Positions 37,727 to 54,738 of a stretch of DNA of 64,000 nt are shown in pieces. The notes beneath the pieces were generated by a model, which saw nothing but the letters and a program-made list of their open reading frames with translations, had not been told where the DNA came from and ran no database searches. Made by a program: the position numbers and the translations under genes. Source of the DNA: a bacterium (GTDB lineage: Bacteria; Patescibacteriota; Minisyncoccia; Phycocordibacterales; Phycocordibacteraceae); NCBI GenBank assembly GCA_037200965.1, contig JBBCGK010000001.1:433992-497991 (forward strand), read 5' to 3'. Each line of letters begins with the position of its first letter. The stretch's first letter is position 1.

Positions 37727-38542
37727 TCAGGCGAGCTTAAAGATCCGCCTGGCGTTTATAAGAAGCGCTTCGCGGACAGTTTCGACTTCCTCCCCGCGGA
37801 TGCGGGCGATGGCGGAGACGACATCCATGACGGCCAAAGGATCGTTCCTCTTCCCCCTGCGGGATGAGGGAGCGACGTAGGGAGAATCGGTTTCGGAGAG
37901 AAGGTGCGTAAGGGGCGCGGCGCGTACCACCTCGTCATAGTCGTGGGTAAAAGTGAGCACGGCCGTATAGGACGTAGTGAAATCAAGCGCGAAGAGCTTG
38001 CGCGCCTCTTCGATGCCGCCTACGAAGAAATGTACATTTCCGGTAAGGCGGTCTCCGTGCTCGCGCTTCGCGCTTTCGAGAATATCGATGAGATCGCTAT
38101 ATGCGTCGACCGTTCCCTTGGAAGGCCGCGCATGAATCATCAGGGGCTTCCCGGTCTCGGCTGCAAGCACGACATGGCTCTCGAATACCGCTCGCTGTTT
38201 TTTCTTCGCTTCGTCGCTTGTATCAACGGGGCGGAAATAGTCTAGCCCGCACTCCCCTATCGAAACTACCTTCGGGTGCGCGGCAAGCGAGCGGAAGGCC
38301 GTCTCGTCGAATCTTTCTTCGGGCGTGTCGTTCGGATGGAGTCCGACAGAGGCGTAGAAGTCGGGACGGCTCTCCACGAGGACTATCGCCTGCTCGGAAG
38401 ACTTCCGGTCGACGCCGACAACGATGCCGCCGACCTCATTCTCCGCAAGATTCTCGAAGAGCCTTCCTCGGTCCTCGTCGAACAGGTCGAACTGGACGTG
38501 GCAATGCGCATCGAAATACTTCATGCGGTTGAACGATAGCAT
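37727..38542 (-). CDS. tatD: TatD-family metal-dependent DNase/hydrolase
   Basis: YFDAHCHV…GLHPND…SIGECGLDY…MIHAR…HFFVGG…SETDSPY motifs. The start may be the Met at 38524. Confidence 0.75.
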   Translation of the reverse strand: MLSFNRMKYFDAHCHVQFDLFDEDRGRLFENLAENEVGGIVVGVDRKSSEQAIVLVESRPDFYASVGLHPNDTPEERFDETAFRSLAAHPKVVSIGECGLDYFRPVDTSDEAKKKQRAVFESHVVLAAETGKPLMIHARPSKGTVDAYSDLIDILESAKREHGDRLTGNVHFFVGGIEEARKLFALDFTTSYTAVLTFTHDYDEVVRAAPLTHLLSETDSPYVAPSSRRGKRNDPLAVMDVVSAIARIRGEEVETVREALLINARRIFKLA

Positions 38543-38558: not shown

Positions 38559-38594
38559 GTTGCACAACCTCCTTTTTACGAACGATCCTGCAGG
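38559..38594. repeat. Array repeat R1 (36 nt, perfect)
   Basis: Exact sequence match. Confidence 0.95.
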
Positions 38595-38603
38595 TTAAAA
38601 GCC

Positions 38604-38912
38604 GTGACTGATTTTCATCGAAAGCACGGCTACGACGTGGGGACCGGGAACATGGCGGTCATGTCGCTCAGAATTGGACTACTCATAGAAGAACTGGGTG
38701 AACTCCACGCCGTGGTTTCAAAGGGTGTTGGCGACATTTCAGAGGAACACGCAGACCTCTTGTATCTACTTCTTGGAAACTGCGTCACGCTTGGTATTGA
38801 TATAGAAACTGCTTTCTTTGCAAAACATGCCATTAACATGCGGAGGGAAGCCAAGGTAGTGAGGGGGAACCGCCGTGTATCGGATTGGTCCCATGAAAAA
38901 TCTCAGGAATGA
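38604..38912 (+). CDS. MazG-like nucleoside triphosphate pyrophosphohydrolase (MazZ-like)
   Basis: ...LIEELGELHAVVSKGVGDISEEHADLLYLLLGNCVTLGID... is the MazG EExxE/D helix pattern. ~100 aa; 4-nt overlap with the downstream PurA-like gene. Confidence 0.55.
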   Translation: MTDFHRKHGYDVGTGNMAVMSLRIGLLIEELGELHAVVSKGVGDISEEHADLLYLLLGNCVTLGIDIETAFFAKHAINMRREAKVVRGNRRVSDWSHEKSQE

Positions 38913-39940
38913 AAGCTACAGTCATCATCGGTGCGCAGTATGGCAGCGAAGGAAAAGGTAAGATTGCAGCTTATCTTTCAGATGAGTTCGCTCGTGCAGT
39001 TCGAACTGGCGGGCCAAACTCGGGGCATACCGTCGAGCGCAATGGCACGTTCTATCAAGTTCGAGCGGTCCCTAGTGCCTTCGTGAACCAACAATGTCGC
39101 CTCGCGATTGGTGCCGGGGCCATAATAAACACTGCCGTACTATTAGGAGAATTAACGGCATGTGGTATTGTCGAGGGGCGTTTGATAGTTGACCCTCAGG
39201 CTGTCATAATTGATGAAGAATATCAAAATTCGGAACTAGATTTAATCAGTTCGATTTCGTCCACCGGACAAGGCGTTGGTGCAGCAATCGCAGCTAAGGT
39301 CTTACGTCGGAAAGTAACTCTCGCAAGAGACGTGCCCGAGTTGCGGCCACTGCTTGCCGATGTTGCTGGCACGATCAATTCCGAACTCCAACAAGGCCTA
39401 GCTGTAATGATTGAGGGGTCGCAAGGATTTTTCTTGAGTTTGCATCATGGTTACTATCCGTTTGTAACAGGCAGGGAAACGACCGCAAGTTCATTTTGCG
39501 CCGAAGTAGGAATCGGTCCCAAAGATGTGGGTCAAGTGATTGGAGTTCTCCGCACCCACCCGATTAGAGTTGGCGGCCCTTCGGGACCTCTTCAAGACGA
39601 AATCGATTGGCAGACCGTCACCGCCGAGTCGGGCTACCCAACACCGCTGTTAGAGATAACTACCGTTACCAAACGAATTCGACGCGTCGGGAGGTTCTCA
39701 ATGGCCGAAGCTAAACGATCTTTGATGATCAATTCGGCGACCCAAATTGCTTTAAACTTCGTCGACTACTTGGACCATGCAAACTTTGGACTTAGAAGCT
39801 ACACCGCACTGACTGCTTCAACAAAAAAATTCATCGACGCACTAGAGACACAAACGGGAGTTCCCGTTTCGCTGGTGGGCACGGGGCCCCGTAACAGCGA
39901 TATGATAGACTTACGACGCGAAAAGAACCTCCCCCATTAG
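38909..39940 (+). CDS. Short adenylosuccinate-synthetase-family protein with GSEGKGK P-loop (PurZ-like, archaeal/phage type)
   Basis: GAQYGSEGKGKI (Ser where PurA has Asp13), GGPNSGHT, EGSQGFFLSLHHGYYPFVT, RVGGPSGP, TVTKRIRRVGRF, TGPRNSD. 343 aa, lacking the long bacterial PurA insertions. Confidence 0.65.
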   Translation: MKATVIIGAQYGSEGKGKIAAYLSDEFARAVRTGGPNSGHTVERNGTFYQVRAVPSAFVNQQCRLAIGAGAIINTAVLLGELTACGIVEGRLIVDPQAVIIDEEYQNSELDLISSISSTGQGVGAAIAAKVLRRKVTLARDVPELRPLLADVAGTINSELQQGLAVMIEGSQGFFLSLHHGYYPFVTGRETTASSFCAEVGIGPKDVGQVIGVLRTHPIRVGGPSGPLQDEIDWQTVTAESGYPTPLLEITTVTKRIRRVGRFSMAEAKRSLMINSATQIALNFVDYLDHANFGLRSYTALTASTKKFIDALETQTGVPVSLVGTGPRNSDMIDLRREKNLPH

Positions 39941-39948
39941 ATACCAGC

Positions 39949-40701
39949 ATGAAAAACCAATACTTTGGCGACTTGAGCGACTATAAGAAGTACGGTTTGC
40001 TGCGCACACTTTCGATTGAGGGTGAGTGCTCGCTCACTGTGTGTTGGATGCTGACGCGAGATGATCAAAGTACCGACGGGCGGCATACAACTTATTTGGC
40101 GGACGTAAGAGAATGGCGCAACCATGAGCCGTTGGTATTTGATCTACTCGCGGACGCAGTCTTCAAAAATTCCCGTAATCTCGAAATAGTTGAAAAGTCC
40201 GGACTAATACCGAACTCAAACTACTTTCGTGAGGAAATCGGCGATGCTCCCTCCCAACGGGAAGCTTTTTTTGCCCGATTGGCAGATGAAGCCCGCAATT
40301 CTGATATTGTGTTCTTGGACCCCGACAACGGCCTTGAAGTGAAGTCAGTCCCCTATGGCTCCAAGGGAGCACATAAGTACATTTATCGGTCTGAAATCGA
40401 AAAGTTATCTCGGAATGGACTTTCAATCTTGCTGTATCAACATTTTGGTCGGAAAGAACGGTCTGAGTTTATCCGAGCTATTGCATTGAAACTCATCGAT
40501 TGGCTGAATGTGGAGGAAGTATTTTCACTTCGGACGACGCATACCGTATTTTTTCTTGTGCCGAAAGCTGCCCACAGGTCGCGAATAGATCGATCCCTCC
40601 AGGCAGTAAATAGACAATGGGGAGATAAGATCTTTATCGAGATACACTCTAAGGAGTCTGTATCAACGGTTACAACGAAAAATCAGTTAGACCTACTCTA
40701 A
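39949..40701 (+). CDS. Hypothetical protein (250 aa) completing the MazG-PurZ-like cassette
   Basis: Clean ORF 8 nt after the PurZ-like stop; lower GC; no HD motif (so not obviously DatZ); unknown function. Confidence 0.45.
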   Translation: MKNQYFGDLSDYKKYGLLRTLSIEGECSLTVCWMLTRDDQSTDGRHTTYLADVREWRNHEPLVFDLLADAVFKNSRNLEIVEKSGLIPNSNYFREEIGDAPSQREAFFARLADEARNSDIVFLDPDNGLEVKSVPYGSKGAHKYIYRSEIEKLSRNGLSILLYQHFGRKERSEFIRAIALKLIDWLNVEEVFSLRTTHTVFFLVPKAAHRSRIDRSLQAVNRQWGDKIFIEIHSKESVSTVTTKNQLDLL

Positions 40702-40774
40702 GTAAGTGAGCAACATGGATATTGGAAAGGAGCCTGACTTCGCCTCGGATGCCTACTTTGATAATCCGCAACAA

Positions 40775-40810
40775 GTTGCACAACCTCCTTTTTACGAACG
40801 ATCCTGCAGG
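40775..40810. repeat. Array repeat R2 (36 nt, perfect)
   Basis: Exact sequence match. Confidence 0.95.
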
Positions 40811-41427
40811 ACGATATCCACAAATCACTGCTGCGCAGCGCGGGCCTCGCGCATCTCTCGGCGGATGAGATTGGGGACTTGAGGGACTTGGCAGCGCATG
40901 AGCTACGGAATGAGACCGCGGACCGCGGTGGTCTCATGGCGGGATTGCGACTGCGCCTGCAACAATGCGACACACGGCTATCACGCCTTACAGACGCGCT
41001 CCTCGACCACCTCATCGAAAAGCAGGAATACGAAGCCAAGAAGGCCGCGCTCCTGGGCGAGCGGCGCGAACTGCTAGACAAACTGGAAAGCCCGGAGGCT
41101 TCGCGTCAACCCGCCGACGGCGTGCTGCAAGCATTGGAACTGCCAGATGTCGTGGAAACACGCTACGAAATGGCTTTGCCGGACCAACGGCGCCGCATTG
41201 CGTCTGCAATCGCTTGGAACCTAACTGGTAGCGGAAAAGAGGCCGTACCTGAGCTGAAATCTCCGTACCGGGAGATCGTACAGTGGCGTCTTTCCAATCC
41301 GGTGCGCCGTAACGGGGAGCGATCGGAACCTGACATAAAGCTGCTATACGAAGCGCTCAAAGAAGTCTGCCGGCGAGAAGACAAGCCGCCGCAACGTCCC
41401 CAACGTCCTGATGTCTCCGGCATATAA
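40811..41427 (+). pseudogene. 5'-truncated ORF beginning inside repeat R2 (C-terminal ~200 aa of a larger protein; coiled-coil, possibly relaxase/recombinase-associated)
   Basis: The reading frame is open from within R2 (…CTTSFLRTILQDDIHKSLLRSAGLAHL…) with no start context. Ends overlapping the T4CP-like gene. Confidence 0.35.
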
Positions 41428-42724
41428 GGCGACATACTTTTTCGAGAATTGTCGCGCCTTATGCCGCGTGAATGTCAGGCAGATGCTGTTCTGCATGGAT
41501 GCGAGCATCAGCTACTTCGCCCGCACCAACTTCCGCAACCGAAACCAGCTCTTCGGTGTGAGGCAAGCCGACCGTCTTTCGCACCTGTACGTCATCGGCA
41601 AGACTGGCACGGGCAAGTCCACCCTCCTTGAAACCCTCGCCCGGCAAGACCTTCGGGCCGGGCGCGGCTTCGCCCTCATAGACCCGCACGGCGATCTCGT
41701 GGAACGGATCGCGAGGGACGCGCCGGAAGCCGTCTATCTGAACGCCCCCGATCCCTCCCAGCCCTTCGGCTATAATCCGCTCCGGAGGGTCAGGGACGAC
41801 AAGATACCGCTTGCCGTCTCGGGCTTCCTCGAAACCCTCAAGAAGCTCTGGCCCGACGCGTGGGGCGTGCGCATGGAGCACGTCCTTAGGAATACGCTGT
41901 ATGCGCTATTCGAGCAGGAGGATGCGCGGCTTCCCGATATCCTCCGCCTCTATGCCGACGAGACATACCGGAAGGCGCTCGCCAAGGGGATTAGGAACGA
42001 TACCGTCCGCCGCTTCTGGCTCCATGAGTTCGAGCACTTCCACTTTCGCCAGAGGGCGGACGCCGTGGCTCCGATACAAAACAAGATCGGGGCGCTCCTT
42101 GCCGACCCCACGCTCTATCGCATCCTCGTCGAGCCAAAGGAGGATATCCGCTTCCGTGCCCTCATGGACGGCGGCGGGGTTCTTCTGGTCAATCTCTCGA
42201 AGGGCAAACTTGGCGAGGACAGCTCGCACATCCTCGGCGCGCTCATCGTCTCGACCCTGGGCCTTGCTGCCTTTAGTCGGGCCGACAGTCCCCCAACCTC
42301 CCGCCGCCCTTTCTTCGTCTATATCGACGAATTCCAGTCCTTCACGACCCTTATGCTCGCCGACATGATGTCGGAGCTGCGGAAGTACGGCGTGGGCCTT
42401 ACCTTGGCGCACCAATATATGCACCAGCTTGAACCCGAGATACGGCATGCGGTTCTGGGGAACGCTGGGACGCTCATATCATTCCGTGTTGGCCCCGAGG
42501 ATGCGTCAATCCTGGCGAAGGAGTTTCAGCCGACGTTTGACACACACGATCTCCTGAACCTGCCTAACCACCATATCTATCTGAAGCTGATGATTGATGG
42601 GGTGCCGGGCGGGGCGTTTAGTGCAAATACAGTCGATCATTCGACGCGGGGAGAGACAAAGCTCGCACCGCTACGAAGGACTTCAGACTTGAATGCGGGC
42701 GAAAGCGCGTCTGACTATGTGTGA
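41411..42724 (+). CDS. FtsK/HerA-superfamily ATPase resembling type IV secretion coupling protein (TraD/TraG/VirD4-like, no TM domain)
   Basis: Walker A YVIGKTGTGKSTLLETL; Walker B FFVYIDEFQSF; C-terminal LAHQYMHQL similar to the T4CP QS..QL motif. Confidence 0.55.
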   Translation: MSPAYKATYFFENCRALCRVNVRQMLFCMDASISYFARTNFRNRNQLFGVRQADRLSHLYVIGKTGTGKSTLLETLARQDLRAGRGFALIDPHGDLVERIARDAPEAVYLNAPDPSQPFGYNPLRRVRDDKIPLAVSGFLETLKKLWPDAWGVRMEHVLRNTLYALFEQEDARLPDILRLYADETYRKALAKGIRNDTVRRFWLHEFEHFHFRQRADAVAPIQNKIGALLADPTLYRILVEPKEDIRFRALMDGGGVLLVNLSKGKLGEDSSHILGALIVSTLGLAAFSRADSPPTSRRPFFVYIDEFQSFTTLMLADMMSELRKYGVGLTLAHQYMHQLEPEIRHAVLGNAGTLISFRVGPEDASILAKEFQPTFDTHDLLNLPNHHIYLKLMIDGVPGGAFSANTVDHSTRGETKLAPLRRTSDLNAGESASDYV

Positions 42725-42859
42725 GCGGGATCACGTTTTTTTGCAGATGGCACGCCCGCGTGGGCTGTTTTGGTAATTGCCATAGCGTCTTGGCAACAAC
42801 TGGGCGTCAGTACCTGGCTTCCCTCACAGGTTGAATATATTACAGTATAGCTCAACCAT

Positions 42860-43864
42860 ATGTTGAGTCGCCGCATGCCCGGTATTACCGAATTACTTTT
42901 GAAAATCGCGCCCAAGATCGGCGCAAAAGTGCTGATCGAGCCTGAGTGGGGCTACGTCGGGCAAATCGCCTTCCGAAGCGGTCGCAAGCGGTACTTCCGG
43001 TTCTCCAGCGTTGACGTGAATACGCTGGGCGCATCGGAAGTCGCGAAGGACAAAGATTTTGCGAACTTCTTCATGAAGCACATGGGTTATCCCATCGTGA
43101 AAGGAAAAACGTTCTTCCGGGACGACTGGGCAGAGACAATCCGCTCCAAGCGAAAGATCACGGCCGCCTATCGATACGCGCGACGGCTGGGATTTCCGGT
43201 GATTGTGAAGCCTAACAGCGGCAGTCAGGGGAAAGCAGTATGCTTGGCTCGCACGAAGCGTCAATTCTATCGCGGAATGCGGGCGACCTTTGAGGTGGAC
43301 AAAGTCGCGCTTGTCCAAATACCTGTTTCAGGAAAAGACTACCGCATCGTGGTCTTGGACCGAGAAATCATTTCGGCGTACTACAGGGTTCCGCTAAGCG
43401 TCGTCGGCAATGGAAAAGCTTCCGTAGCGGCGTTGCTCAAGTCGAAGCAGAAAGAGTTTCGGCGCGCCGGGCGCGACACGGCGATCAGGGCCGACGATCC
43501 GCGCATAGCGGAAAAGCTCGAGCATCAGGGACTGAGCTTCGCTTCCGTTCTCCGAAAGGATCAAAAGGTTTTTCTTTTGGATAACGCCAACCTTTCGACG
43601 GGCGGCGAATCGGAAGACGTAACGGAAAGCGTGCACAAGGAGTTCAGGAAAATCGCGGTGTCGCTTACGAGGGATATGGGACTGCGCCTGTGCGGCGTCG
43701 ATCTCATGATAGACGGGGATATCTCGGAGCCGCCCAAAACGTATTGGGTGCTTGAAGTCAATTCGGCCCCGGGGCTCGATCATTATGCGAAAAGCGGCGC
43801 GGCACAAAACAAAATCGTCGAAAAGATGTATACGACGGTGCTTAAGAGCTTGGATCGTGACTAG
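42860..43864 (+). CDS. ATP-grasp family enzyme (RimK/cyanophycin-synthetase-like ligase)
   Basis: ...GFPVIVKPNSGSQGKAV..., ...DYRIVVLDREIISAYYR..., C-terminal ...LCGVDLMIDGD...YWVLEVNSAPGL. Confidence 0.55.
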   Translation: MLSRRMPGITELLLKIAPKIGAKVLIEPEWGYVGQIAFRSGRKRYFRFSSVDVNTLGASEVAKDKDFANFFMKHMGYPIVKGKTFFRDDWAETIRSKRKITAAYRYARRLGFPVIVKPNSGSQGKAVCLARTKRQFYRGMRATFEVDKVALVQIPVSGKDYRIVVLDREIISAYYRVPLSVVGNGKASVAALLKSKQKEFRRAGRDTAIRADDPRIAEKLEHQGLSFASVLRKDQKVFLLDNANLSTGGESEDVTESVHKEFRKIAVSLTRDMGLRLCGVDLMIDGDISEPPKTYWVLEVNSAPGLDHYAKSGAAQNKIVEKMYTTVLKSLDRD

Positions 43865-43956
43865 CTCGTGTATAGTCCATACGACCGATCTTCCTGACAC
43901 CAATAGGCATCGGCCAAATCGTGATTGCTGACCAACGTTTTGCGCCGAGCGACCGC

Positions 43957-44247
43957 CTAGTCGGGATCGTAGGGATTATTGGTATCCGTGCCATTGCGCG
44001 AGGAACCAGACGGCGAACTATACGGATCGACGCGCTTGTGACCTTGCTCGCCCGTATAGGGGTTCACGTTTGGATACGTCGAGTAATTGTTATAGGGATT
44101 GCTGTCAGGCGATGAGCGATGGTGTGGCGGAACATACGTGCCGTCCTTCCGCACATAGCCTCTGACACTGACGTCCTTCGCTGCCGCCTCAGCGCCAGTG
44201 GCCAGCAGGGTCGTGAAGACCAAAAGGGCGGCAAAAATCTTGCGCAT
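43957..44247 (-). CDS. Small secreted Pro/Tyr/Asn-rich protein
   Basis: Signal peptide MRKIFAALLVFTTLLATGAEAAA; then low-complexity PYNNYSTYPNVNPY. Confidence 0.4.
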   Translation of the reverse strand: MRKIFAALLVFTTLLATGAEAAAKDVSVRGYVRKDGTYVPPHHRSSPDSNPYNNYSTYPNVNPYTGEQGHKRVDPYSSPSGSSRNGTDTNNPYDPD

Positions 44248-44357
44248 ATTAACTCCGATCAAAAATGCGGCTCGATGCTAGTTTAGTGGCTGGCGCAGGG
44301 CCAGAGGAATAATCTTCGCAAGCGTGCGTCAGGCCACGCCCTACGGTAACGCGTCGA

Positions 44358-45341
44358 TCAGTTCGCCTCGTCGAAAATCCCATTCAGGATCGCCCCAAGC
44401 CGCACCCCTGCCGCCTGCAAGCGCTCTTCCACGATGGCGGCGCGGTCTTCCTTGTAGTTGCCGTCGGGCGCGAAGACGCGAACGGCGCCACCGGTATACG
44501 TCTCGCTGTCTTCGGAATAGCGGCAGGTGGTGCCGGAGAGCGTACAGTATCCGGTGTCGGGCGCGCGGGAGACGGTGAGCGATTCGTTGGCCCATACCAT
44601 CGGATCGAGCGACGCCTTCCACGTTGCCCGCTGCTCGTCCGTGATTTCCTTTTGAAGAACATTGCCAAACGCCTCGCGCCCAGGGCCTGCTGGCTTCGTC
44701 TGCGCGATGTGGAGATCACGCATGACTTGTTCGGGAATGCAGGTGTCCCACACGGTATGGAGCGCGGTTTTGCCGTCATAGGCGCAGCCCGAGACGCCCT
44801 TCACGCCGACGCTGTTGCCGCCGCGATCATCGGCATACGAAATGTGGAGCGGCTGGTGTATGTCGCCGAGCCAGTGCCCGAGGAATTTGAGGGCCGTGCG
44901 CTTCTTGTCGGTTGAGGCATTCGGGTCTTTGAGGATGGCGATATCGGCGGGGATGGCCGTGAAAAGGCACGTCGCCGCATTCACGCACTTGGCCTCGGGG
45001 AAGCTCGTCCAATCGCGCGGCATATTGATGAAGTGCTCCGCCCTCCGGCTGCTTTGCACATCGCCCTTCTCGTCCGGCCAGGTGCAGGCCCCGTGGAAGG
45101 TTCTCGGTATCTCCTTGCCGTCAGCGTCCTTAAGCGGGGTTTCTGAGCGGATAAGCTTGTTGACCGCCTTGCGGGCCGTCGGCGTGAGCTCCTTGTATGC
45201 GATCTCGCAGACCGCCTCGTGGCCGGTGCCGCCGAAGGCGAGGGCACCGCTCGTTGTGAGACAAAGACTGACGAAGCCACCAGCTCCAAACAGCGCAAGA
45301 AGAACCCGCCGACGTCCACCCATGTACCCGCTCCCCCTCAC
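44358..45341 (-). CDS. Secreted S1/P1-family zinc-dependent nuclease
   Basis: N-terminal signal, then the ...FGGTGHEAV... (W/GH motif) and ...LKFLGHWLGDIHQPLH... zinc-ligand motifs characteristic of S1-P1 nuclease. Confidence 0.7.
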   Translation of the reverse strand: MRGSGYMGGRRRVLLALFGAGGFVSLCLTTSGALAFGGTGHEAVCEIAYKELTPTARKAVNKLIRSETPLKDADGKEIPRTFHGACTWPDEKGDVQSSRRAEHFINMPRDWTSFPEAKCVNAATCLFTAIPADIAILKDPNASTDKKRTALKFLGHWLGDIHQPLHISYADDRGGNSVGVKGVSGCAYDGKTALHTVWDTCIPEQVMRDLHIAQTKPAGPGREAFGNVLQKEITDEQRATWKASLDPMVWANESLTVSRAPDTGYCTLSGTTCRYSEDSETYTGGAVRVFAPDGNYKEDRAAIVEERLQAAGVRLGAILNGIFDEAN

Positions 45342-45453
45342 TATTCGTGCCCAGGATGCGAGGACTCGCCCTAGCCGAAGAACGGATGATGCCCGGATGA
45401 TTTCACCCGTCCAAGAGGAATGTGCGCCTTAGACTTCGTATCGGGCCGGGCCT

Positions 45454-46359
45454 ATGCTGCTTCTATTGGTGGGGTGTTTCTCAGGGGGTATTGGCATGAC
45501 TAGCGGCACGCGAGTTTTTCCGACGCGTTCGTATCGGGCATCATTTCCCATTCATGCGCTTCTTGCCGTCTTCGCGCTTCTCGTCGCGGGTGCGTATGGC
45601 CCGGCCGGTTCGGCCTTGGCCGCGACCAGCGCGGCGTCCTTCTGCCTTGACGCATGCCCCGAGGGCGCGCCGGCAAAGAACAAGACGGTCGTGCACCATG
45701 TCTATGCGCTCAGCTCGAACCCCGACACGAAATTCGCCGATTGGGTCGCGTACAAGATCTCCAAAGCGACCATCGGGTCGAACTGTTCGCGCAAGTGGGC
45801 GAAGGACCCGGACCTAGCGGCCGGCACCACGCTCAAGCCCGCCGATTACAAGGACATCAGTGCGGCGCTCCAGTCCGACCGGGGCCATCAAGCGCCCTTG
45901 GCAAGCCTATGCGGCTCGAAGTTCAATGCCGAGGCGAACTATCTCTCGAACATCACCCCACAAAAGTCCGACCTCAATCAGGGCGCATGGGTGCGGCTCG
46001 AAACCGCCGAACGCAAGCTCATTACGGGCGGCACCGCGAAGACCGTGTATACCGTCACCGGGACGCTCTACGAAAAGAAGATGCCGCCGCTTCCCAAGGC
46101 GAGCGTCAAGCACAAAGTCCCTTCGGGCTATTGGAAGATCGTCGCCGTCGAGACGGACGACGGGATCGACGCCGTGGCGTTCGTCATGCCGCAGGATACA
46201 CCCAAAGCCGCCGATTATTGCGAAACGCGCACCACCATCGGCGACGTTGAGACGCGCTCGGGCCTCAAGTTCTTCCTCGATCTCAACGAGACCGACCGCA
46301 CGCAGCTTGAGGAGAGCGAGGCGAAGACCGGCCTCTATGAGGATTTGGGCTGCGAGTAG
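45454..46359 (+). CDS. Secreted DNA/RNA non-specific endonuclease (Serratia NucA family)
   Basis: Signal-anchor, then SDRGHQAPLAS (the DRGH catalytic motif) and downstream Asn/Glu residues. Confidence 0.7.
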   Translation: MLLLLVGCFSGGIGMTSGTRVFPTRSYRASFPIHALLAVFALLVAGAYGPAGSALAATSAASFCLDACPEGAPAKNKTVVHHVYALSSNPDTKFADWVAYKISKATIGSNCSRKWAKDPDLAAGTTLKPADYKDISAALQSDRGHQAPLASLCGSKFNAEANYLSNITPQKSDLNQGAWVRLETAERKLITGGTAKTVYTVTGTLYEKKMPPLPKASVKHKVPSGYWKIVAVETDDGIDAVAFVMPQDTPKAADYCETRTTIGDVETRSGLKFFLDLNETDRTQLEESEAKTGLYEDLGCE

Positions 46360-46381
46360 CACGAGCGCGGGAAGATACGGC

Positions 46382-46669
46382 ATGCGCAAGGCATTCATAC
46401 TGACGCTGGTGGCGTTCTCCGCACTTGCGGCAACCCCACTCATCGCGCGGACCACGGATGCGGAAGTCCGGGGACAAATGATCCGCGAGTCCATCGCAAG
46501 CTATCCCGGCAACTGCCCGTGTCCGTACAGCACGATGCGAAACGGGCGCTCCTGCGGCGGGCGAAGCGCGTACAGTCGGCCCGGCGGATATGCTCCGCTG
46601 TGCTACCCGTCTGACGTTTCGGACGATATGGTGCGCGGCTATCGAAGCACGCATGGGCTCGGGAACTGA
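46382..46669 (+). CDS. Small secreted Cys-rich protein (95 aa)
   Basis: Signal peptide MRKAFILTLVAFSALAATPLIA; 6 Cys; begins 20 nt after the nuclease stop. Confidence 0.35.
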   Translation: MRKAFILTLVAFSALAATPLIARTTDAEVRGQMIRESIASYPGNCPCPYSTMRNGRSCGGRSAYSRPGGYAPLCYPSDVSDDMVRGYRSTHGLGN

Positions 46670-46865
46670 TCGATCCGATTGATATCTGGCGAAGCGCGCA
46701 AACGCTCATCTCGCTCTATGGCGATGAGGCGGAACAGTTCGCGCTTCGCCGCGCCGCTACCCTGCTCGGCGAAGGAGACCGGGAGGGCCATGCGGCAATG
46801 GCAAGCGTTGCGGAAGCGGTGAAGAAGCTGCGGCAGGAGCGGCCCGAAAGCGGCGATGCCGTCCA

Positions 46866-47273
46866 CTAGTCGGCGTCCGGCAGCTTATCGGAAGCCTCGG
46901 CAAACTCCCGCACCAGCGCGACGATGTGCTTGCGCCGGGCGGGCGACTTGACCTGCGCGAACGCTCTCGCAAGCGCCCGCCCGTCGGCGCTCGAAAGCAG
47001 CGGCATTTCTTCCGCGAACAGTGCCGAACGGGCTTTGTCGTATGCCTCGGAAACGAAGTATTCCCAGGGCAGATCAAGCACCACCATCATCCGCAACAGC
47101 GCTTCAAGCGGCAGCCGGTTGGTTCCCTTTTCATACTTCTGCATCTGTTGGAAACTAACGCCGAGGCGCTTTCCGAGAGCGAGTTGCGACAGGCCGCGCA
47201 GCGTCCGTGCGGCAAATATCTTTTGGCCGATAATCTTATTGATCTCTGACGAACTGTGCTTGCGCGGGGCCAT
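46866..47273 (-). CDS. XRE-family (Cro/C1-type HTH) transcriptional regulator
   Basis: IGQKIFAARTLRGLSQLALGKRLGVSFQQMQKYEKGTNRLPLEAL. Confidence 0.6.
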   Translation of the reverse strand: MAPRKHSSSEINKIIGQKIFAARTLRGLSQLALGKRLGVSFQQMQKYEKGTNRLPLEALLRMMVVLDLPWEYFVSEAYDKARSALFAEEMPLLSSADGRALARAFAQVKSPARRKHIVALVREFAEASDKLPDAD

Positions 47274-47349
47274 TCTCAATCCCGTTATACTATCGATCTC
47301 GCAAATTCTATGGCGCGAAAACCCCATTGTCGCGCGCAATCTCAGCCTG

Positions 47350-48333
47350 TTACGCCTCCTTCATCCACTCCCGGTGCATGCGCTCCCATTCCGGGCGCGG
47401 CGCTTCGAACTCTTCCCGGAACCACGGCATATGCTCTGGCACGAAGACCGTCTCGCGCAGGAACGCGAGCGTCGATTTGACGGCGGGTTTTGCGGCATGC
47501 ACGCGGTTATATGAGATGTAGAGCTTGCCGGGAAGGCGAAACGCAAGCGGAAGGGCGACGAGGTCCGGGTCGCCAAGCGCGTGGTAGGTAGGTGCGAGCG
47601 CGATGCCCGCGCCAAAATGCAGGCACCGCTCGAAGAAGCTCGTCTGGTTGGTGAGGATCGACACGTTCTTGACGACGTTTCCGCCCGACCATGCGGCCCA
47701 GGATGCCGTGCGCGTCTGATACTGGGCGAGATCGAGCAACCGGTGCTCGCTAAGCGCTTCGCTCGTCTGCGGCGTCCCGTGTTTTTGCAGATAGGACTTC
47801 GACGCGAACAGGGCGTAATGGACGGTCGCGAGCGGCCTCGACACCTGATCCGAATTTCCCGGATCGTAGAAGTGGATGCGGATGTCGAAGCTGTCGCTTC
47901 GGGGCGCGGTGATGTCCTGATCGGGCGATACCTTGAGCTCAATGTTCGGATGCCGTTCGAGGAAGCTCGGCATGAACTGCGCCAGCCAGAGGCTCGCAAC
48001 CCCGTCCGCGACCAGGATGCGGCAGTCGCCTTGAACGCTGCCTCCGCTGTCCTTCGCGTCCCTGCGAAGGAGCGCAATGCATTTGCGCGCCTCAAACGCG
48101 TTCGGAAGCAGACGTTCGCCGAGGTCGGTGAGCGCGCAGCCGTCGGTGCCGCGTATGAATACGCGCCCGCCGATCCACTGTTCGAAGCTGCGCAGCCGCT
48201 TGCTCACGGTTGCCTGCGTTGATCCGAGCATCGCCGCGGCCCGCTTGATGCTGCCGCCCTCGGCGATTGCGAGAAAATAGCGGAGATCGTTCCACTGCTC
48301 GGGCGAGGGGTCATCACTATTGGAAAGTACCAT
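47350..48333 (-). CDS. LysR-family transcriptional regulator
   Basis: N-terminal HTH WNDLRYFLAIAEGGSIKRAAAMLGSTQATVSKRLRSFEQWIGGRVFIRG... plus a substrate-binding domain; divergent from the GNAT gene. Confidence 0.7.
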   Translation of the reverse strand: MVLSNSDDPSPEQWNDLRYFLAIAEGGSIKRAAAMLGSTQATVSKRLRSFEQWIGGRVFIRGTDGCALTDLGERLLPNAFEARKCIALLRRDAKDSGGSVQGDCRILVADGVASLWLAQFMPSFLERHPNIELKVSPDQDITAPRSDSFDIRIHFYDPGNSDQVSRPLATVHYALFASKSYLQKHGTPQTSEALSEHRLLDLAQYQTRTASWAAWSGGNVVKNVSILTNQTSFFERCLHFGAGIALAPTYHALGDPDLVALPLAFRLPGKLYISYNRVHAAKPAVKSTLAFLRETVFVPEHMPWFREEFEAPRPEWERMHREWMKEA

Positions 48334-48434
48334 CTTCCGTCCCTTGGCTTCCGGGCGGCGATAATCGAATGGCAATTTAAGCTCCGGCAACAAAAAAATG
48401 CATAAGGCGCCAGGCGGCGCCGTGGAGTAATTCC

Positions 48435-49601
48435 TTGGAAAAGAACGATTTTAGCGCGATACGAAGCGGTACCTACGGGCCCGAACATGCCGCAGCGCAT
48501 CCCGATGGGGGAAGCGTATGGCTGCGTCCGGCCGGGGTCGGGGATATTCCGTTTGTGCATAGCCTGACCGTCTCGGACATCTCCGCCGAAACGGCACCGG
48601 AGGAGGTTATTCGGGCTGTTCACGCCCGCAATCCCGATGCCCTGTGGCTTATCGAGCGCCAAAGAGGCGGGGAGCCACCGGCCCCTATCGGCTATTTCGG
48701 CTTCCTGCCGCTCACCGATCCCGGTCTCGACGCGCTCAAGGAAGGCGCGCTCGACCGCAAGAGCCCGCCGCTTGAGCTTGTGGCCGAGGGCGGCACGCGT
48801 CCGGCGGCGGTGTACGTGTGGGGCGTCGTGGCGCATCGCCTAGTGCGGGTCACCGCGCCGCTCCTCACCCTCGCGCTTTCGCCTTACATCGACGTTCCCT
48901 TCTACACCGTCTCCCAGACCGAAGAGGGGCTGCGCTCGGCCCGTAGGCGCGGCTTCGTGCCGGTCGATGCGCGGATCGGCGACCGGGGCGGGCTCGTGCT
49001 GCTGCCGCTTGGCAGCCTTCTTGCGCCGCCGCCAAGCAAAGTCGCGCAGCTCGACGTGATCGTGGCCTCGAACGCCGAGCACCTCATGATGTGCGCCTAT
49101 GTTCGCGGCGTGGTGTTCGGCGCGGAGCAGCTCGCCCCCTACCGCGAGGAATTCGACGGCAACGACTTCTGCGGCATCCAGCTTCTGGGGTTCGTGAACA
49201 ACGAGCCTGCGGCAGTGCTTCGCATCCGTCACTTCGCGTCATTCGCGAAATTCGAGCGGTATGCCGTGCTCGAGCGCTTCCGCAAAACGCGGATCAAGTA
49301 CGAAATCCTGGAGTTCGGAATCGAGCTGTGCCGCCGCAAGGGATACACGAAGCTCTACGCGCACTCGCAGGTGCGCCTCGTCCGCTTCTATGAGCGGTTC
49401 GGCTTTCGTCTGTGCGCCGCGCAGCGTCCGCTCGTCTTCGCGGATCACGAATACGTCGAGATCGAAGCCGACCTCGCGCCGCATCCCGAGGCGATCACGA
49501 CCGCCACCGATCCCTACGTGATCATCCGACCCGAAGGGGCGTGGGACAGGCGCGGCGTTCTTGACCAGTCAGCGGCACGGCCCGCGACTAATCCCGTCTA
49601 G
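48435..49601 (+). CDS. GNAT-family acetyltransferase (two GNAT-like halves)
   Basis: C-terminal half ...AVLRIRHF...ELCRRKGYTKLYAHSQVRLVRFYERFGF fits the acyl-CoA N-acyltransferase fold; divergently paired with LysR. Confidence 0.55.
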   Translation: MEKNDFSAIRSGTYGPEHAAAHPDGGSVWLRPAGVGDIPFVHSLTVSDISAETAPEEVIRAVHARNPDALWLIERQRGGEPPAPIGYFGFLPLTDPGLDALKEGALDRKSPPLELVAEGGTRPAAVYVWGVVAHRLVRVTAPLLTLALSPYIDVPFYTVSQTEEGLRSARRRGFVPVDARIGDRGGLVLLPLGSLLAPPPSKVAQLDVIVASNAEHLMMCAYVRGVVFGAEQLAPYREEFDGNDFCGIQLLGFVNNEPAAVLRIRHFASFAKFERYAVLERFRKTRIKYEILEFGIELCRRKGYTKLYAHSQVRLVRFYERFGFRLCAAQRPLVFADHEYVEIEADLAPHPEAITTATDPYVIIRPEGAWDRRGVLDQSAARPATNPV

Positions 49602-49603
49602 GA

Positions 49604-49840
49604 GTGCTCGACATGGCCGGAACGCTCGATTGCTTTGTCCGCCTTGTTGAACTCGACACCTGCGTGCGTGAGTTGGCACAGCGCAAGCGCGCGAATAATA
49701 GGATCAGCATATCCGATCTTGATGACGTTCTCCTGGCGCTTGCTGAAGCTCGGGAAACGATCCAGGACGACGCGTATGACGAGATGGCGAGGCGGCGAGC
49801 GATAACAACGGCGGACATAATGCAGTTCGCAAAAGATTAG
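49604..49840 (+). CDS. Small hypothetical protein (78 aa)
   Basis: ORF 2 nt after the GNAT stop; no domain. Confidence 0.25.
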   Translation: MLDMAGTLDCFVRLVELDTCVRELAQRKRANNRISISDLDDVLLALAEARETIQDDAYDEMARRRAITTADIMQFAKD

Positions 49841-50107
49841 CGAAAGCGCGCGGCTCTATTCAAAACGCGGCCTACGACAAGTTCGCAACTATTCGTCCGA
49901 CAACACTCGCCCGATAACGGATCATTCGGCAACCAGAGGATAATGAGTATATCGCGGGAGCGAAGCATAGGAGACGATGCAGTGCATAGTCCGTCATAAA
50001 TTCAACGGCGGCATCCTGATGGTAGCTGTATAACAGCGTGGTGCCGGAACTTCCCCTTGTAGCCAATACCGGGCTTCGTTACAAAGCTTCAAGGGGAGGC
50101 TATATGC

Positions 50108-51743: not shown

Positions 51744-51779
51744 GTTGCACAACCTCCTTTTTACGAACGATCCTGCAGG
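51744..51779. repeat. Array repeat R3 (36 nt, perfect); truncates the SpvB-like gene
   Basis: Exact sequence match; translated in frame as CTTSFLRTILQ at the end of ORF 50108. Confidence 0.95.
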
Positions 51780-51793
51780 TTTCCGTTAATCTT

Positions 51794-53134: not shown

Positions 53135-53136
53135 AA

Positions 53137-53298
53137 TCAGGTACTTTGTACGAGTAATTCCCCGGCACTATTGGCGTAGAGCACCACAGGCGTCTTGCCG
53201 TCAGCGCTTGAGACAGCCATGAGTGCAGGAACAAAGTTTGCGTCCCGCAGATCGTCTACCGGCCCAAAGTCCGACCCGGTAGTGTCGTCGTCCGCCAT
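53137..53298 (-). CDS. Short N-terminal paralog fragment of the tail-fibre-like protein, starting next to repeat R4
   Basis: ...VPALMAVSSADGKTPVVLYANSAG... mirrors the N-terminus of the 51794-53134 protein (...IAASSADGKTPVRLYADP...). Confidence 0.3.
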   Translation of the reverse strand: MADDDTTGSDFGPVDDLRDANFVPALMAVSSADGKTPVVLYANSAGELLVQST

Positions 53299-53327
53299 AA
53301 GCGCATGTGTTGAAGGGTCAGCAACGA

Positions 53328-53363
53328 GTTGCACAACCTCCTTTTTACGAACGATCCTGCAGG
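53328..53363. repeat. Array repeat R4 (36 nt, perfect)
   Basis: Exact sequence match. Confidence 0.95.
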
Positions 53364-53460
53364 AGTATGAGTACTGATACCGTCCAATCTGCCATTGAAT
53401 ATGCGCGACACTCGCCGTCGTGACGACGTTGAGTTAAGTCAATGGCGATTTATGTTACTG

Positions 53461-54725: not shown

Positions 54726-54738
54726 TCGCGTAATGCCG

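What the first reader, a model, noticed from the sequence alone, without database searches (positions are those of the whole stretch)
40811..42724. Segment B opens with conjugation-like machinery: a truncated coiled-coil ORF followed by a T4CP-like ATPase
The 437-aa protein has Walker A and B motifs (YVIGKTGTGKSTLLETL; FFVYIDEFQSF) and a C-terminal QYMHQL motif like the QS..QL of VirD4/TraG coupling proteins, but lacks an N-terminal membrane anchor. It is translationally overlapped with the upstream 5'-truncated ORF. In conjugative elements the gene preceding the coupling protein is often the relaxase.

This suggests segment B derives from a conjugative or mobilisable element rather than a phage.
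Basis: inference. Interest (0 to 1): 0.5.

Follow-up and report, generated by a model that had tools for sequence, protein, structure and literature searches.

The report
Captured mobile-element fragment in kilobase-spacer CRISPR array
The flagged genes are a dead piece of a recombinase gene and an intact, membrane-less relative of conjugative coupling ATPases, and they sit at the start of a 10.9-kb piece of foreign DNA lying between two copies of a CRISPR-type repeat, in a tiny-genome (CPR) bacterium whose Cas1-Cas2 array holds kilobase-long inserts instead of short spacers.

Summary
The ORFs and motifs are real, and the ATPase is TrwB/VirD4-like. Pfam TrwB_AAD_bind scores 36.5 bits. The AlphaFold model (pLDDT 89.6) matches TrwBdeltaN70 best (E 6e-14), and there is no membrane segment.

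Three parts of the interpretation fail. The upstream ORF is the last ~40% of a large serine recombinase, not a relaxase. The real ATPase start is M29 (41495, 409 aa), so the two ORFs do not overlap. The window holds no relaxase or T4SS genes.

The "segment B" border at 40811 is the edge of an exact 36-nt repeat. That repeat occurs six times (38559 to 57713), and its last copy lies 32 nt from cas2-cas1 (57746-59094). The five intervening "spacers" are 2180, 10933, 1548, 1375 and 2903 nt. Related Paceibacterota genomes have tatD next to metG, so the whole 20.6 kb is lineage-specific. Insert S1 is 100% identical to part of an island on a 4-Mb contig of the same assembly and cuts genes at both ends.

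Other CPR cas1-cas2 loci show the same repeat family, either as one copy or as arrays with 0.2-7.7 kb spacing, and never as normal arrays.

Best reading: Cas1-Cas2 captured long foreign fragments, and the ATPase is a passenger on one of them. The integration mechanism is inferred, not shown.

The parts
40811..41427 (+). 3' remnant (about 205 codons) of a large serine recombinase gene. The Resolvase, Recombinase and Zn-ribbon domains are missing.
   Evidence: BLASTP gives 61% identity to residues 304-514 of the 516-aa recombinase of L001, E 5e-84. phrog_95 integrase matches at profile positions 457-549 of 651. Nucleotide homology to L001 starts exactly at 40812.
41495..42724 (+). Intact gene for a soluble TrwB/VirD4-like P-loop ATPase (409 aa). 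The longest ORF starts at 41411.
   Evidence: Pfam TrwB_AAD_bind 36.5 bits, TraG-D_C 22.1, DUF87 25.6. PDB profile search finds TrwB at 2e-6. AF2 pLDDT is 89.6. Foldseek finds TrwBdeltaN70 at E 5.6e-14, TM 0.60-0.65. The start is set by the homologue alignment and the NCBI annotation.
38559..38594 (-). Repeat R1, the copy farthest from cas. Cas-sense sequence: CCTGCAGGATCGTTCGTAAAAAGGAGGTTGTGCAAC.
   Evidence: Exact 36-nt match. Six copies are found against 0 expected.
38595..40774 (.). Insert S1, 2180 nt. It holds a 5'-cut MazG/PRA-PH gene, a PurZ-like adenylosuccinate-synthetase homologue, a 250-aa ORF and the first ~20 codons of a P450 gene.
   Evidence: All 2180 bases are identical to L082, the 4.0-Mb contig of the same assembly, where the flanking genes are intact.
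40775..40810 (-). Repeat R2.
40811..51743 (.). Insert S2, 10,933 nt. In order: recombinase remnant, ATPase, ATP-grasp, S1-P1 nuclease, NS endonuclease, HTH, LysR, GNAT and a 3'-cut SpvB/FG-GAP gene.
   Evidence: Open frames of 204 and 560 codons run into its two ends.
51744..51779 (-). Repeat R3.
51780..53327 (.). Insert S3, 1548 nt, holding a 446-aa ORF of unknown function.
   Evidence: A Logan unitig of 1604 nt equals S3 plus the repeat edges.
53328..53363 (-). Repeat R4.
53364..54738 (.). Insert S4, 1375 nt. It holds a 173-aa ORF and a PRTase-like ORF that appears 5'-cut.
54739..54774 (-). Repeat R5.
54775..57677 (.). Insert S5, 2903 nt. It holds a 3'-cut patatin-like gene and ORFs of 523 aa and 154 aa.
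57678..57713 (-). Repeat R6, the cas-proximal copy.
57714..57745 (-). 32-nt leader-like spacer between the cas2 stop and the first repeat. It is partly conserved across loci and ends in GGCT or GACT.
57746..58042 (-). cas2-like gene, 98 aa.
   Evidence: A profile of 7 orthologues hits Cas2 structures 7f84_A and 4qr0_A at E about 8e-4. The gene always follows cas1 in this clade.
58039..59094 (-). cas1, 351 aa.
   Evidence: Pfam Cas_Cas1 1.1e-63. TIGR00287 scores 221.5 bits against a cutoff of 71.7. It aligns to solved Cas1 7cr6 at 1.8e-31 with the GLEG, LYH and LDLVEEFR motifs intact.
37727..38542 (-). tatD, the native chromosomal flank.
   Evidence: Pfam TatD_DNase. It is adjacent to metG in relatives L095 and L094.
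59150..60580 (-). metG (MetRS), the native chromosomal flank.

Best explanation
Shown: Window 40811-42724 is the first 1.9 kb of a 10.9-kb block of foreign DNA (S2, 40811-51743). The block lies between two identical copies of a 36-nt CRISPR-type repeat, in a circular ~0.96-Mb Candidatus Paceibacterota (CPR) contig. It opens in the middle of a large serine recombinase gene, of which only the C-terminal ~205 codons survive. The next gene is complete and encodes a soluble TrwB/VirD4-like ATPase with a P-loop nucleotide-binding domain and an inserted all-alpha domain but no membrane anchor.

Shown for the family, inferred for function: In other bacteria this ATPase family belongs to integrative islands. 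It typically sits beside an intact serine recombinase, an HTH regulator and two unknown proteins (about 167 and 447 aa). ArdC, DUF3768, DUF932, RadC, ParB, Replic_Relax and often a second 700-1000-aa T4CP-like paralogue lie nearby. It probably acts there as a hexameric DNA-dependent NTPase that processes the excised element or hands it on for transfer.

Inferred: In this genome it is a passenger without partners. S2 is one of five kilobase inserts (S1-S5) in an array of six perfect repeats that begins 32 nt after cas2-cas1. The most likely mechanism is that the Cas1-Cas2 integrase joined the ends of long linear DNA fragments to the two borders of a repeat. Gap repair then duplicated the repeat, as in ordinary spacer acquisition but without a length ruler and without any effector. 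The fragments would come from neighbouring bacteria or their mobile elements.
For: ATPase identity:
- The family is very large: more than 7999 90%-clusters and 5258 50%-cluster representatives at E<=1e-30.
- Island context is shown.

Recombinase remnant.

Host: RecA's best named relatives are Paceibacterota/Patescibacteria at 85-89% identity. The contig is 960,259 bp, and the window runs from its last base (46708) to its first (46709).

Array:
- Six exact 36-mers are found against 0 expected by chance. No degenerate copy exists within 13 mismatches.
- cas1 and cas2 are adjacent to the last copy.
- Relatives L095 and L094 have tatD directly next to metG, so 38543-59149 is an insertion.
- All 2180 bases of S1 are identical to an island on a 4.0-Mb contig, and its ends fall inside genes that are intact in that contig. 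The donor carries no repeat at those ends.
- Inserts lack terminal inverted repeats, and long open frames run into their ends.
- The junctions recur in independent short-read and Logan assemblies.

Generality:
- About 25 CPR cas1-cas2 loci carry the same repeat family (CCTGCA-N22/23-TTGTGCAAC). Wherever the preceding sequence was examined, it lies about 32 nt after the cas2 stop.
- Multi-copy loci have spacings of 1369/1416/1377/2414 (L100), 1299/1519 (L105), 7709 (L103), 4796, 586 and 220.
- No locus of this clade has a normal array. Distant Cas1 loci have periods of 73-77 nt.
- Strains with an identical leader and repeat differ immediately after the repeat.
Against: - No experiment supports this, and I know of no precedent for full-site integration of kilobase DNA by a Cas1-Cas2 complex. 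The mechanism rests on anatomy alone.
- S1 looks the youngest insert (100% identical to its donor), yet it is the farthest from cas. This does not fit strictly leader-proximal acquisition.
- Donors of S2-S5 were not found. That S2 is a single fragment is inferred from the absence of internal repeats.
- Most related loci are short contigs with only one repeat.
- The repeat matches no Rfam CRISPR-DR family and shows no covariation.
- Only 64 kb of the 960-kb contig was inspected, so effector genes elsewhere cannot be excluded.
- For the ATPase, no relaxase or T4SS is linked in the window. Its role in the native islands is untested. A weak mad8 (defence) match exists.
Confidence: 0.6

Rival explanations
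1. First reader's model. Segment B is part of a resident conjugative or mobilisable element in which a relaxase gene (now truncated) is translationally coupled to a type IV coupling protein that feeds DNA to a T4SS.
For: - The ATPase has T4CP-like sequence and fold.
- Family members sit in islands with ArdC, DUF932, ParB and Replic_Relax.
- IMEs that encode their own coupling protein are documented (PMC5704250).
Against: - The upstream ORF is a serine recombinase C-terminus.
- The true start is M29, so there is no overlap.
- There is no membrane anchor.
- The window holds no relaxase or T4SS genes.
- NCBIfam TraD/VirD4 models score 23-37 bits against cutoffs of 366-648.
- The recombinase is cut exactly at a CRISPR-type repeat.
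Confidence: 0.07
2. The 36-nt repeats are attachment-site cores. Each block is a mobile element that integrated site-specifically into the same att site using its own serine or tyrosine recombinase, which duplicated the core (attL/attR). The link to cas1-cas2 is incidental.
For: - S2 starts with a serine recombinase gene.
- One L100 insert holds a Phage_integrase fragment.
- Tandem accretion of islands at a single att site is a known phenomenon (general knowledge).
Against: - S1 has no recombinase, and its donor locus lacks the 36-mer at either end.
- The S2 recombinase is truncated by the repeat itself, so it could not have made the junction.
- Most inserts (S3-S5 and the L100 and L105 inserts) encode no recombinase and carry cut genes at their ends.
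- The repeat lies about 32 nt after the cas2 stop wherever that was examined, and downstream of cas1-cas2 in about 30 loci in unrelated chromosomal contexts.
Confidence: 0.1
3. The ATPase is a HerA/FtsK-type NTPase of an anti-phage defence system (mad8-like) or a phage packaging-type ATPase. It is unrelated to conjugation.
For: - PADLOC mad8 matches at 9.7e-17.
- phrog_5156 matches at 2.7e-46, and there is a weak terminase hit.
- Relatives at 26-28% identity occur in Bacillus phages SPO1 and G.
- HerA structures appear among the fold hits.
Against: - No other mad gene or PADLOC hit is found among the neighbours.
- TrwB ranks above HerA in both the sequence search and the fold search (E 6e-14 against 6e-11).
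- Genomic context is dominated by recombinases and conjugation-associated accessory genes.
Confidence: 0.12
4. Assembly chimera. Unrelated contigs were joined through a shared 36-mer, so the array of kilobase blocks does not exist in any cell.
For: All sequences are metagenome-derived. S1 is shared at 100% identity with another contig of the same assembly.
Against: - The same junctions and order appear in a 22-kb and a 10.8-kb contig of GCA_015655515.1, in a 6.6-kb contig of GCA_015689235.1 (that contig by gene order only; its DNA could not be fetched), and in Logan unitigs from two runs. The unitigs break at or next to repeat edges.
- An unrelated CPR contig (L100, 137.9 kb) and several JGI contigs show the same architecture with different repeats and inserts.
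Confidence: 0.03

Closest known systems
TrwB / VirD4 / TraD type IV coupling proteins (Pfam TrwB_AAD_bind PF10412, TraG-D_C PF12696)
   Same: It has a P-loop NBD with Walker A and B and the QxxxQL motif at the homologous position. A helical domain of about 110 residues is inserted in the NBD. Its size matches the cytoplasmic part of TrwB (TrwBdeltaN70). TrwB is the best PDB match by both sequence and fold.
   Different: It has no N-terminal transmembrane segment. Identity to TrwB is only about 18%, with TM-score 0.60-0.65. NCBIfam TraD/VirD4 equivalog models score far below their cutoffs. It is not linked to a T4SS and only sometimes to a putative relaxase (Replic_Relax, 8 of 70 loci). Its usual neighbour is a serine recombinase.
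Large serine recombinases (Resolvase + Recombinase + Zn_ribbon_recom, e.g. phage or ICE integrases, TnpX)
   Same: The upstream ORF is 61% identical to the C-terminal 210 residues of such a protein, which sits beside the orthologous ATPase in L001.
   Different: The catalytic and DNA-binding domains are absent. It is a dead remnant cut at nucleotide 40811.
CRISPR adaptation module (Cas1-Cas2 integrase, leader and repeat array)
   Same: cas1 is bona fide and its catalytic motifs are intact. A cas2-like gene follows it. The 36-37-nt direct repeats are perfectly conserved within a locus and have conserved ends. The array starts just after cas2, and a repeat flanks each insert on both sides. Content next to the leader-proximal repeat varies between strains.
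   Different: The 'spacers' are 0.18-10.9 kb instead of about 30-40 nt and carry whole or cut genes. No effector or Cas4 lies nearby. The leader is only about 32 nt. Many loci have a single repeat. There is no Rfam CRISPR-DR match.
Casposons (Cas1-solo transposons)
   Same: A Cas1-family integrase is associated with insertion of kilobase-sized DNA and duplication of the target.
   Different: Here cas1-cas2 stays outside the inserts. The inserts have no terminal inverted repeats and no PolB. The duplicated target is a fixed 36-nt repeat, and the inserts are unrelated random fragments.
Integrons (IntI tyrosine recombinase, attI/attC cassette arrays)
   Same: The overall layout is similar: a fixed integrase module followed by an array of kilobase units separated by a repeated site.
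   Different: There is no tyrosine recombinase and no attC hairpins. The units are often cut genes in either orientation, which suggests raw fragment capture rather than cassette exchange.

Membership tests
Type IV coupling protein (VirD4/TrwB/TraD) | P-loop NTPase domain with Walker A and B, matching the family's Pfam model | tested here: met
   GKTGTGKS is at residue 63 and FFVYIDEF at 301. PF10412 scores 36.5 bits against a cutoff of 20.5, and PF12696 scores 22.1 against 22.
Type IV coupling protein (VirD4/TrwB/TraD) | All-alpha domain inserted in the NBD, with overall TrwB-like fold | tested here: met
   The AF2 model (pLDDT 89.6) has helices 101-211 inserted between strands. Foldseek's top 33 hits are all TrwBdeltaN70 chains, at E 5.6e-14 to 2.3e-12, TM 0.59-0.65, over about 400 columns.
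Type IV coupling protein (VirD4/TrwB/TraD) | N-terminal transmembrane anchor that docks the hexamer at the T4SS channel | tested here: not met
   The maximum Kyte-Doolittle 19-mer score in residues 1-100 is 0.77. Homologues start about 5 residues before the conserved core.
Type IV coupling protein (VirD4/TrwB/TraD) | Genetic linkage to a relaxase and a T4SS (mating-pair formation genes) | tested here: not met
   None is present in the window. Across 70 related loci, Replic_Relax occurs in 8 and no T4SS gene cluster was seen.
Type IV coupling protein (VirD4/TrwB/TraD) | Reaches the curated NCBIfam TraD/VirD4 family thresholds | tested here: not met
   SXT_TraD scores 36.7 bits against a cutoff of 366. 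conj_TOL_TraD scores 28.4 against 647.55. TraD_Ftype scores 23 against 521.35.
   There are no Pfam or NCBIfam hits. The only homology found is to a serine recombinase C-terminus.
Large serine recombinase | N-terminal Resolvase catalytic domain, Recombinase domain and Zn ribbon | tested here: not met
   Only residues equivalent to 304-514 of 516 remain. The frame is closed upstream of 40771. It is a remnant, not a functional member.
CRISPR-Cas locus | cas1 and cas2 adjacent to an array of identical direct repeats | tested here: met
   cas1 scores 221.5 bits on TIGR00287. The cas2-like profile hits Cas2 structures at E about 8e-4. There are six exact 36-nt repeats, the first 32 nt from cas2.
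CRISPR-Cas locus | Spacers of uniform short length (about 26-72 nt) | tested here: not met
   The spacers are 2180, 10933, 1548, 1375 and 2903 nt. The same kilobase spacing occurs in L100, L103 and L105.
CRISPR-Cas locus | Effector (interference) genes, and crRNA made from the repeat | tested here: inconclusive
   No effector family was found in 38-64 kb or in relatives' loci. The rest of the 960-kb contig was not seen. The cas-sense repeat RNA folds at -10.4 kcal/mol, z -2.5, but shows no covariation.
Casposon | Terminal inverted repeats and a PolB carried inside the element together with cas1 | tested here: not met
   Insert ends match in 2-9 of 20 positions as inverted repeats. cas1 lies outside the inserts, and no polymerase domain was hit.
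MADS defence system (mad8) | Presence of the other mad genes in an operon | tested here: not met
   Only the ATPase hits PADLOC (mad8 at 9.7e-17). The five neighbours tested have no hit.

The most novel reading that the evidence does not exclude
A clade of Cas1-Cas2 integrases in Patescibacteria (Paceibacterota and relatives) no longer records short immune memories. Instead it works as a gene-capture platform, analogous to an integron. It inserts kilobase-long fragments of environmental or host DNA at a single 36-37-nt repeat next to cas2 and duplicates the repeat each time. It thereby feeds foreign genes into the tiny genomes of these symbionts. Examples here are a coupling-type ATPase from a mobile island and a PurZ/MazZ fragment 100% identical to DNA of a co-occurring 4-Mb bacterium. 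The shared fragment could also point to the unknown host of this CPR lineage.
Probability: 0.45. Interest if true: 0.92.

Novelty: new variant of a known kind. Interest (0 to 1): 0.78.

Why it matters
Taken alone, the ATPase and recombinase pair is an ordinary, decayed scrap of an integrative island. Its only wider value is to flag a very large, uncharacterised family of membrane-less coupling-protein relatives: 5258 50%-identity clusters at E<=1e-30.

What matters is where the scrap sits. If Cas1-Cas2 really inserted it, CRISPR integrases can capture kilobase DNA in nature. That would be a new route of horizontal gene acquisition in CPR bacteria. It would also be a living intermediate between casposons and CRISPR adaptation, and a candidate length-independent, sequence-targeted DNA integrase for genome engineering.

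The 100% identical 2.2-kb fragment shared with a 4-Mb genome is also a concrete, testable clue to who this uncultured symbiont lives with.

Tried and rejected
- **Relaxase hypothesis for the upstream ORF.** Rejected. It has no Pfam or NCBIfam hit, and homology to a serine recombinase is strong.
- **Window as a concatenation of contigs.** Rejected. The window crosses the start of a 960-kb record that appears circular, and all junctions recur in other assemblies.
- **PADLOC.** Only a lone mad8 hit was found, with no system around it. The MADS preprint gave no function for mad8.
- **Exact 36-mer search in JGI metagenome contigs.** It found 0 hits. Relatives have diverged middles, and were found instead through Cas1.
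- **Rfam search of 38.4-59.2 kb.** There were no hits at E<=1.
- **RNAalifold on 20 repeat variants.** The only supported stem is invariant and shows no covariation, so it is uninformative.
- **Single-sequence AlphaFold model of the 98-aa ORF.** pLDDT was 48, so the model was unusable and not fold-searched. A PDB profile search was used instead.
- **Functions for conserved island neighbours c3 (167 aa), c5 (447 aa) and c12 (134 aa).** Pfam, PHROGs and NCBIfam gave no hits.
- **Donors of S2-S5.** No match was found among the 179 fetched loci, apart from homologues of the ATPase and recombinase-remnant genes themselves.
- **Literature searches.** Searches for kilobase or giant spacers and for stand-alone Cas1-Cas2 in CPR found nothing relevant. 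This covers the held library only and does not prove novelty.
- **ORF calling.** Neighbours in the 80 genome loci were called with my own crude longest-ORF caller, so gene counts are approximate.
Full report
**1. The observation**

ORF 41411..42724 (+, 437 aa) and the upstream open frame ending at 41427 both exist.
- Walker A (GKTGTGKS, residue 63), Walker B (FFVYIDEF, 301) and QYMHQL (335) are present.
- No 19-residue window reaches transmembrane hydrophobicity. The maximum is 1.51 overall and 0.77 in the first 100 residues.
- The claimed translational overlap does not hold. Homologues are about 390 aa and begin at the position of M29. NCBI annotates the protein as 409 aa (MEJ0053614.1, 'DUF87 domain-containing protein'). 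The gene therefore starts at 41495, 67 nt after the upstream stop.

**2. What the two ORFs are**

The ATPase:
- It passes the Pfam thresholds for TrwB_AAD_bind (36.5 bits), TraG-D_C (22.1) and DUF87.
- It falls far below every curated NCBIfam TraD/VirD4 cutoff.
- The best solved relative by sequence is TrwB (2e-6), followed by DotL.
- An AlphaFold2 model built on 119 sequences is confident (pLDDT 89.6, pTM 0.87). It has a helical block (residues about 101-211) inserted in the P-loop domain.
- Foldseek ranks 33 TrwBdeltaN70 chains first (E 5.6e-14 to 2.3e-12, TM 0.59-0.65, about 400 aligned columns), ahead of HerA, DotL, VirB4 and Cagbeta.
- It therefore has the architecture of the cytoplasmic part of a type IV coupling protein but lacks the membrane anchor.

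The upstream frame has no Pfam or NCBIfam hit. It aligns at 61% identity (E 5e-84) to residues 304-514 of a 516-aa Resolvase/Recombinase/Zn-ribbon protein that precedes the orthologous ATPase in locus L001. It also hits the integrase family phrog_95. It is the 3' remnant of a large serine recombinase, not a relaxase.

**3. The ATPase family and its usual home**

- The family is very large. More than 7999 90%-identity clusters hit. At the 50% level there are 5258 representatives with E<=1e-30. Many of these are fused to extra domains of 300-800 aa.
- In 80 genome loci, all from MAGs, I called ORFs and clustered the neighbours. The loci span Alpha- and Gammaproteobacteria, Acidobacteriota, Bacteroidota, Patescibacteria and others.
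- A recurrent module is: a 167-aa protein, an HTH_31 regulator, a 447-aa protein (or Phage_rep_O), a serine recombinase and then the ATPase.
- 56 of 70 loci have at least one mobile-element marker within 10 kb: Ser recombinase 28, P4-type Tyr integrase 19, ArdC 12, Replic_Relax 8, DUF3768 7, DUF932 6, ParB 5, RadC 5, and a 700-1000-aa T4CP-like paralogue 11.
- A cultured example is a Sulfitobacter mediterraneus plasmid, with the order recombinase, a small hypothetical gene, DUF3768, ATPase.
- Eleven CPR/Gammaproteobacteria loci carry a longer subtype in a conserved SecDF context. They form a different subfamily.
- This supports a mobile-element origin. A role in conjugative mobilisation remains an inference, because no T4SS is linked and the putative relaxase is only occasional. 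IMEs that carry their own coupling protein are documented (PMC5704250).

**4. Why the recombinase is cut at 40811**

- The window comes from contig JBBCBH010010897.1 (960,259 bp) of GCA_037975565.1 and crosses its ends: window 46708 is the last base of the record and 46709 the first. I therefore treat the contig as circular.
- RecA's closest named relatives are Candidatus Paceibacterota/Patescibacteria at 85-89% identity. The host is a CPR bacterium.
- Aligning the two borders of the low-GC block upstream of the finding showed the same 36 nt at both: GTTGCACAACCTCCTTTTTACGAACGATCCTGCAGG.
- This 36-mer occurs six times in the window, all on one strand and all exact: 38559, 40775, 51744, 53328, 54739 and 57678. 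None is expected by chance, and there is no degenerate copy within 13 mismatches.
- The last copy lies 32 nt from the stop of a 98-aa gene. The profile of that gene family hits Cas2 structures at E about 8e-4.
- A bona fide cas1 lies next to it, its end overlapping the start of the 98-aa gene: Pfam 1.1e-63, TIGR00287 221.5 bits. The GLEG, LYH and LDLVEEFR motifs are intact in an alignment to solved Cas1 structures.
- The intervals between repeats are 2180, 10933, 1548, 1375 and 2903 nt.
Nucleotide homology to the L001 recombinase begins at 40812, one base after the insert begins.

**5. The whole array is an insertion, and its inserts are foreign fragments**

- In two related Paceibacterota genomes tatD lies next to metG. 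In L095 (RecA 94% identical) the two genes overlap by 4 nt. L094 (RecA 89%) has the same neighbourhood. In the window they are 20.6 kb apart, and the gap holds only the repeats, the inserts and cas2-cas1.
- All 2180 bases of S1 are identical to part of an island on a 4.0-Mb contig of the same assembly (L082). There the genes cut by the S1 ends are intact: a 297-aa AAA_18/PRA-PH gene and a 402-aa P450. The 36-mer is absent at those ends.
- S2 starts inside the recombinase gene and ends inside a SpvB/FG-GAP gene. S4 and S5 also carry cut genes.
- Inserts have no terminal inverted repeats (2-9 of 20 matches). Open frames of 100-560 codons run into their ends.
- The architecture is not an assembly artefact. 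The same junctions appear in short-read contigs of GCA_015655515.1 (22 kb and 10.8 kb), in a 6.6-kb contig of GCA_015689235.1 (gene order only; its DNA could not be fetched), and in Logan unitigs. The unitigs break at or next to repeat edges.

**6. Generality**

- The window's Cas1 belongs to a Patescibacteria-specific clade, and no other cas gene was seen in the relatives' loci inspected. A 98-aa cas2-like ORF follows cas1 in the loci where gene calls were available, and cas2-like ORFs of 91-104 aa precede the repeat in five further loci.
- Among the loci fetched for this clade (L097-L100 and 79 metagenome loci, which also include distant Cas1 relatives), about 25 carry a repeat of the form CCTGCA-N22/23-TTGTGCAAC (cas-sense). 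It lies downstream of cas1-cas2, about 32 nt after the cas2 stop wherever the preceding sequence was examined.
- Most are short contigs with a single copy.
- Multi-copy loci have spacings of 1369/1416/1377/2414 (L100), 1299/1519 (L105), 7709 (L103), 4796 (L143), 586 (L120) and 220 nt (L117).
- No locus in the clade has a normal array. Distant Cas1 homologues at 33-35% identity have ordinary arrays with periods of 73-77 nt.
- Contigs from different samples that share an identical cas2-leader-repeat continue with three different sequences right after the repeat. The variant sequences have no match within 10 kb downstream in the reference strain.

**7. Mechanism**

Shown:
- the anatomy of the array;
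- the foreign origin of S1;
- that the 20.6 kb is an insertion;
- that cas1-cas2 and the repeat recur together.

Inferred:
- Cas1-Cas2 inserted long linear DNA at a repeat by the same two-step transesterification and gap repair that duplicates a repeat during spacer acquisition, but without length control.
- The ATPase gene arrived as a passenger on a fragment of an integrative island.
- The ATPase ORF is intact and keeps every residue that is invariant across the 119 aligned family sequences. However, it has lost all its usual partners, so a role in DNA transfer in this genome is unlikely.

Points against:
- There is no precedent and no experiment.
- S1 is the most donor-like insert, yet it is distal to cas.
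- Donors of S2-S5 are unknown.
- The repeat matches no Rfam family and shows no covariation.
- Effectors elsewhere in the contig cannot be excluded.

Rivals, each scored separately:
- att-site accretion of elements by their own recombinases;
- a defence or packaging role for the ATPase;
- assembly chimera;

**8. Comparison and novelty**

- The ATPase works like, and is folded like, a T4CP cytoplasmic domain. It fails two defining features of the family: the membrane anchor and linkage to a T4SS and relaxase. I file it as a T4CP-like protein of an uncharacterised family, not as a coupling protein.
- The upstream ORF is a dead serine recombinase remnant.
- The surrounding array meets the cas1-cas2-plus-repeat criteria of a CRISPR locus. 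It fails the short-spacer criterion and shows no effector. It also fails the casposon and integron criteria.
- Literature searches of the held library found no description of kilobase-spacer Cas1-Cas2 arrays. That is not proof of novelty.
- I rate the pair of flagged genes as ordinary. I rate the context as a new variant of a known kind, with a substantial chance of being a new functional category, namely gene capture by a CRISPR integrase.

Noticed in passing
window 38604-39940 (within S1); intact copy in L082 8071-9992: S1 carries a MazG/PRA-PH gene, which in the donor is fused to an AAA_18 domain (297 aa). Next to it is a 343-aa adenylosuccinate-synthetase homologue that hits phrog_1211 ('2-aminooxy adenylosuccinate synthetase', 6e-72). 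Its N-terminus reads GAQYGSEGKGK, with Ser where PurA has the catalytic Asp; I recall this as a PurZ hallmark and did not verify it. It looks like a mazZ-purZ (2-aminoadenine) cluster sitting in a bacterial island rather than a phage. The S-2L paper notes that MazZ-1 often has N-terminal fusions (PMC8342488).
   Followed up: partly
window 38595-40774 versus L082 8647-10826 (contig JBBCBH010010880.1, 4.0 Mb): A 2180-nt stretch is 100% identical between a 0.96-Mb CPR genome and a 4.0-Mb genome from the same assembly. This implies very recent DNA flow between them, or from a shared element. It may be a clue to the CPR bacterium's host. The taxonomy of the 4-Mb contig was not determined.
   Followed up: partly
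loci L065, L071-L078, L080, L081 (genome contigs): A longer subtype of the ATPase (516-705 aa, about 45% identical) occurs in Patescibacteria and Gammaproteobacteria MAGs. It sits in a conserved, apparently chromosomal context: SecDF-PpiC fusion, a sigma70_r4/HARE-HTH protein, a 477-aa protein and then the ATPase. The 477-aa protein and the ATPase together match the N- and C-halves of the 824-aa phage family phrog_5156.
   Followed up: partly
C-terminus of the ATPase, window 42704-42721, and homologues P0002, P0003, P0015, P0028, P0100: After a disordered linker (pLDDT <50 from residue 386), a subset of homologues ends in a conserved acidic-aromatic tail: SDYV, SDFI, SDFR or SDYF. It is reminiscent of the C-terminal docking tails of TraD or SSB. 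No partner was identified.
   Followed up: no
L082 12018-16916; L040, L046, L011, L015, L017, L026: Islands that carry the small ATPase often also encode a 700-1000-aa T4CP-like paralogue. In several loci it is preceded by a 134-aa protein, and in at least two (L026, L082) a Replic_Relax (PF13814) putative relaxase lies nearby. This suggests a two-ATPase mobilisation module.
   Followed up: partly
window 44358-46359 (within S2): Inside the captured block there are two candidate extracellular nucleases (S1-P1 family and DNA/RNA non-specific endonuclease; secretion not tested) side by side and divergently transcribed, next to a small Pro-rich ORF. They could be useful cargo for a DNA-scavenging symbiont.
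   Followed up: no
window 55506-57077 (-) and 51794-53134 (-): Two large ORFs inside inserts S5 and S3 (523 aa and 446 aa) have no hit in Pfam or NCBIfam and are unique to this population.
   Followed up: no
window 46708/46709: The window runs across the start and end of the 960,259-bp source record, which I take to be circular. This is not a biological junction. A 6.6-kb contig from another assembly spans it by gene order.
   Followed up: yes
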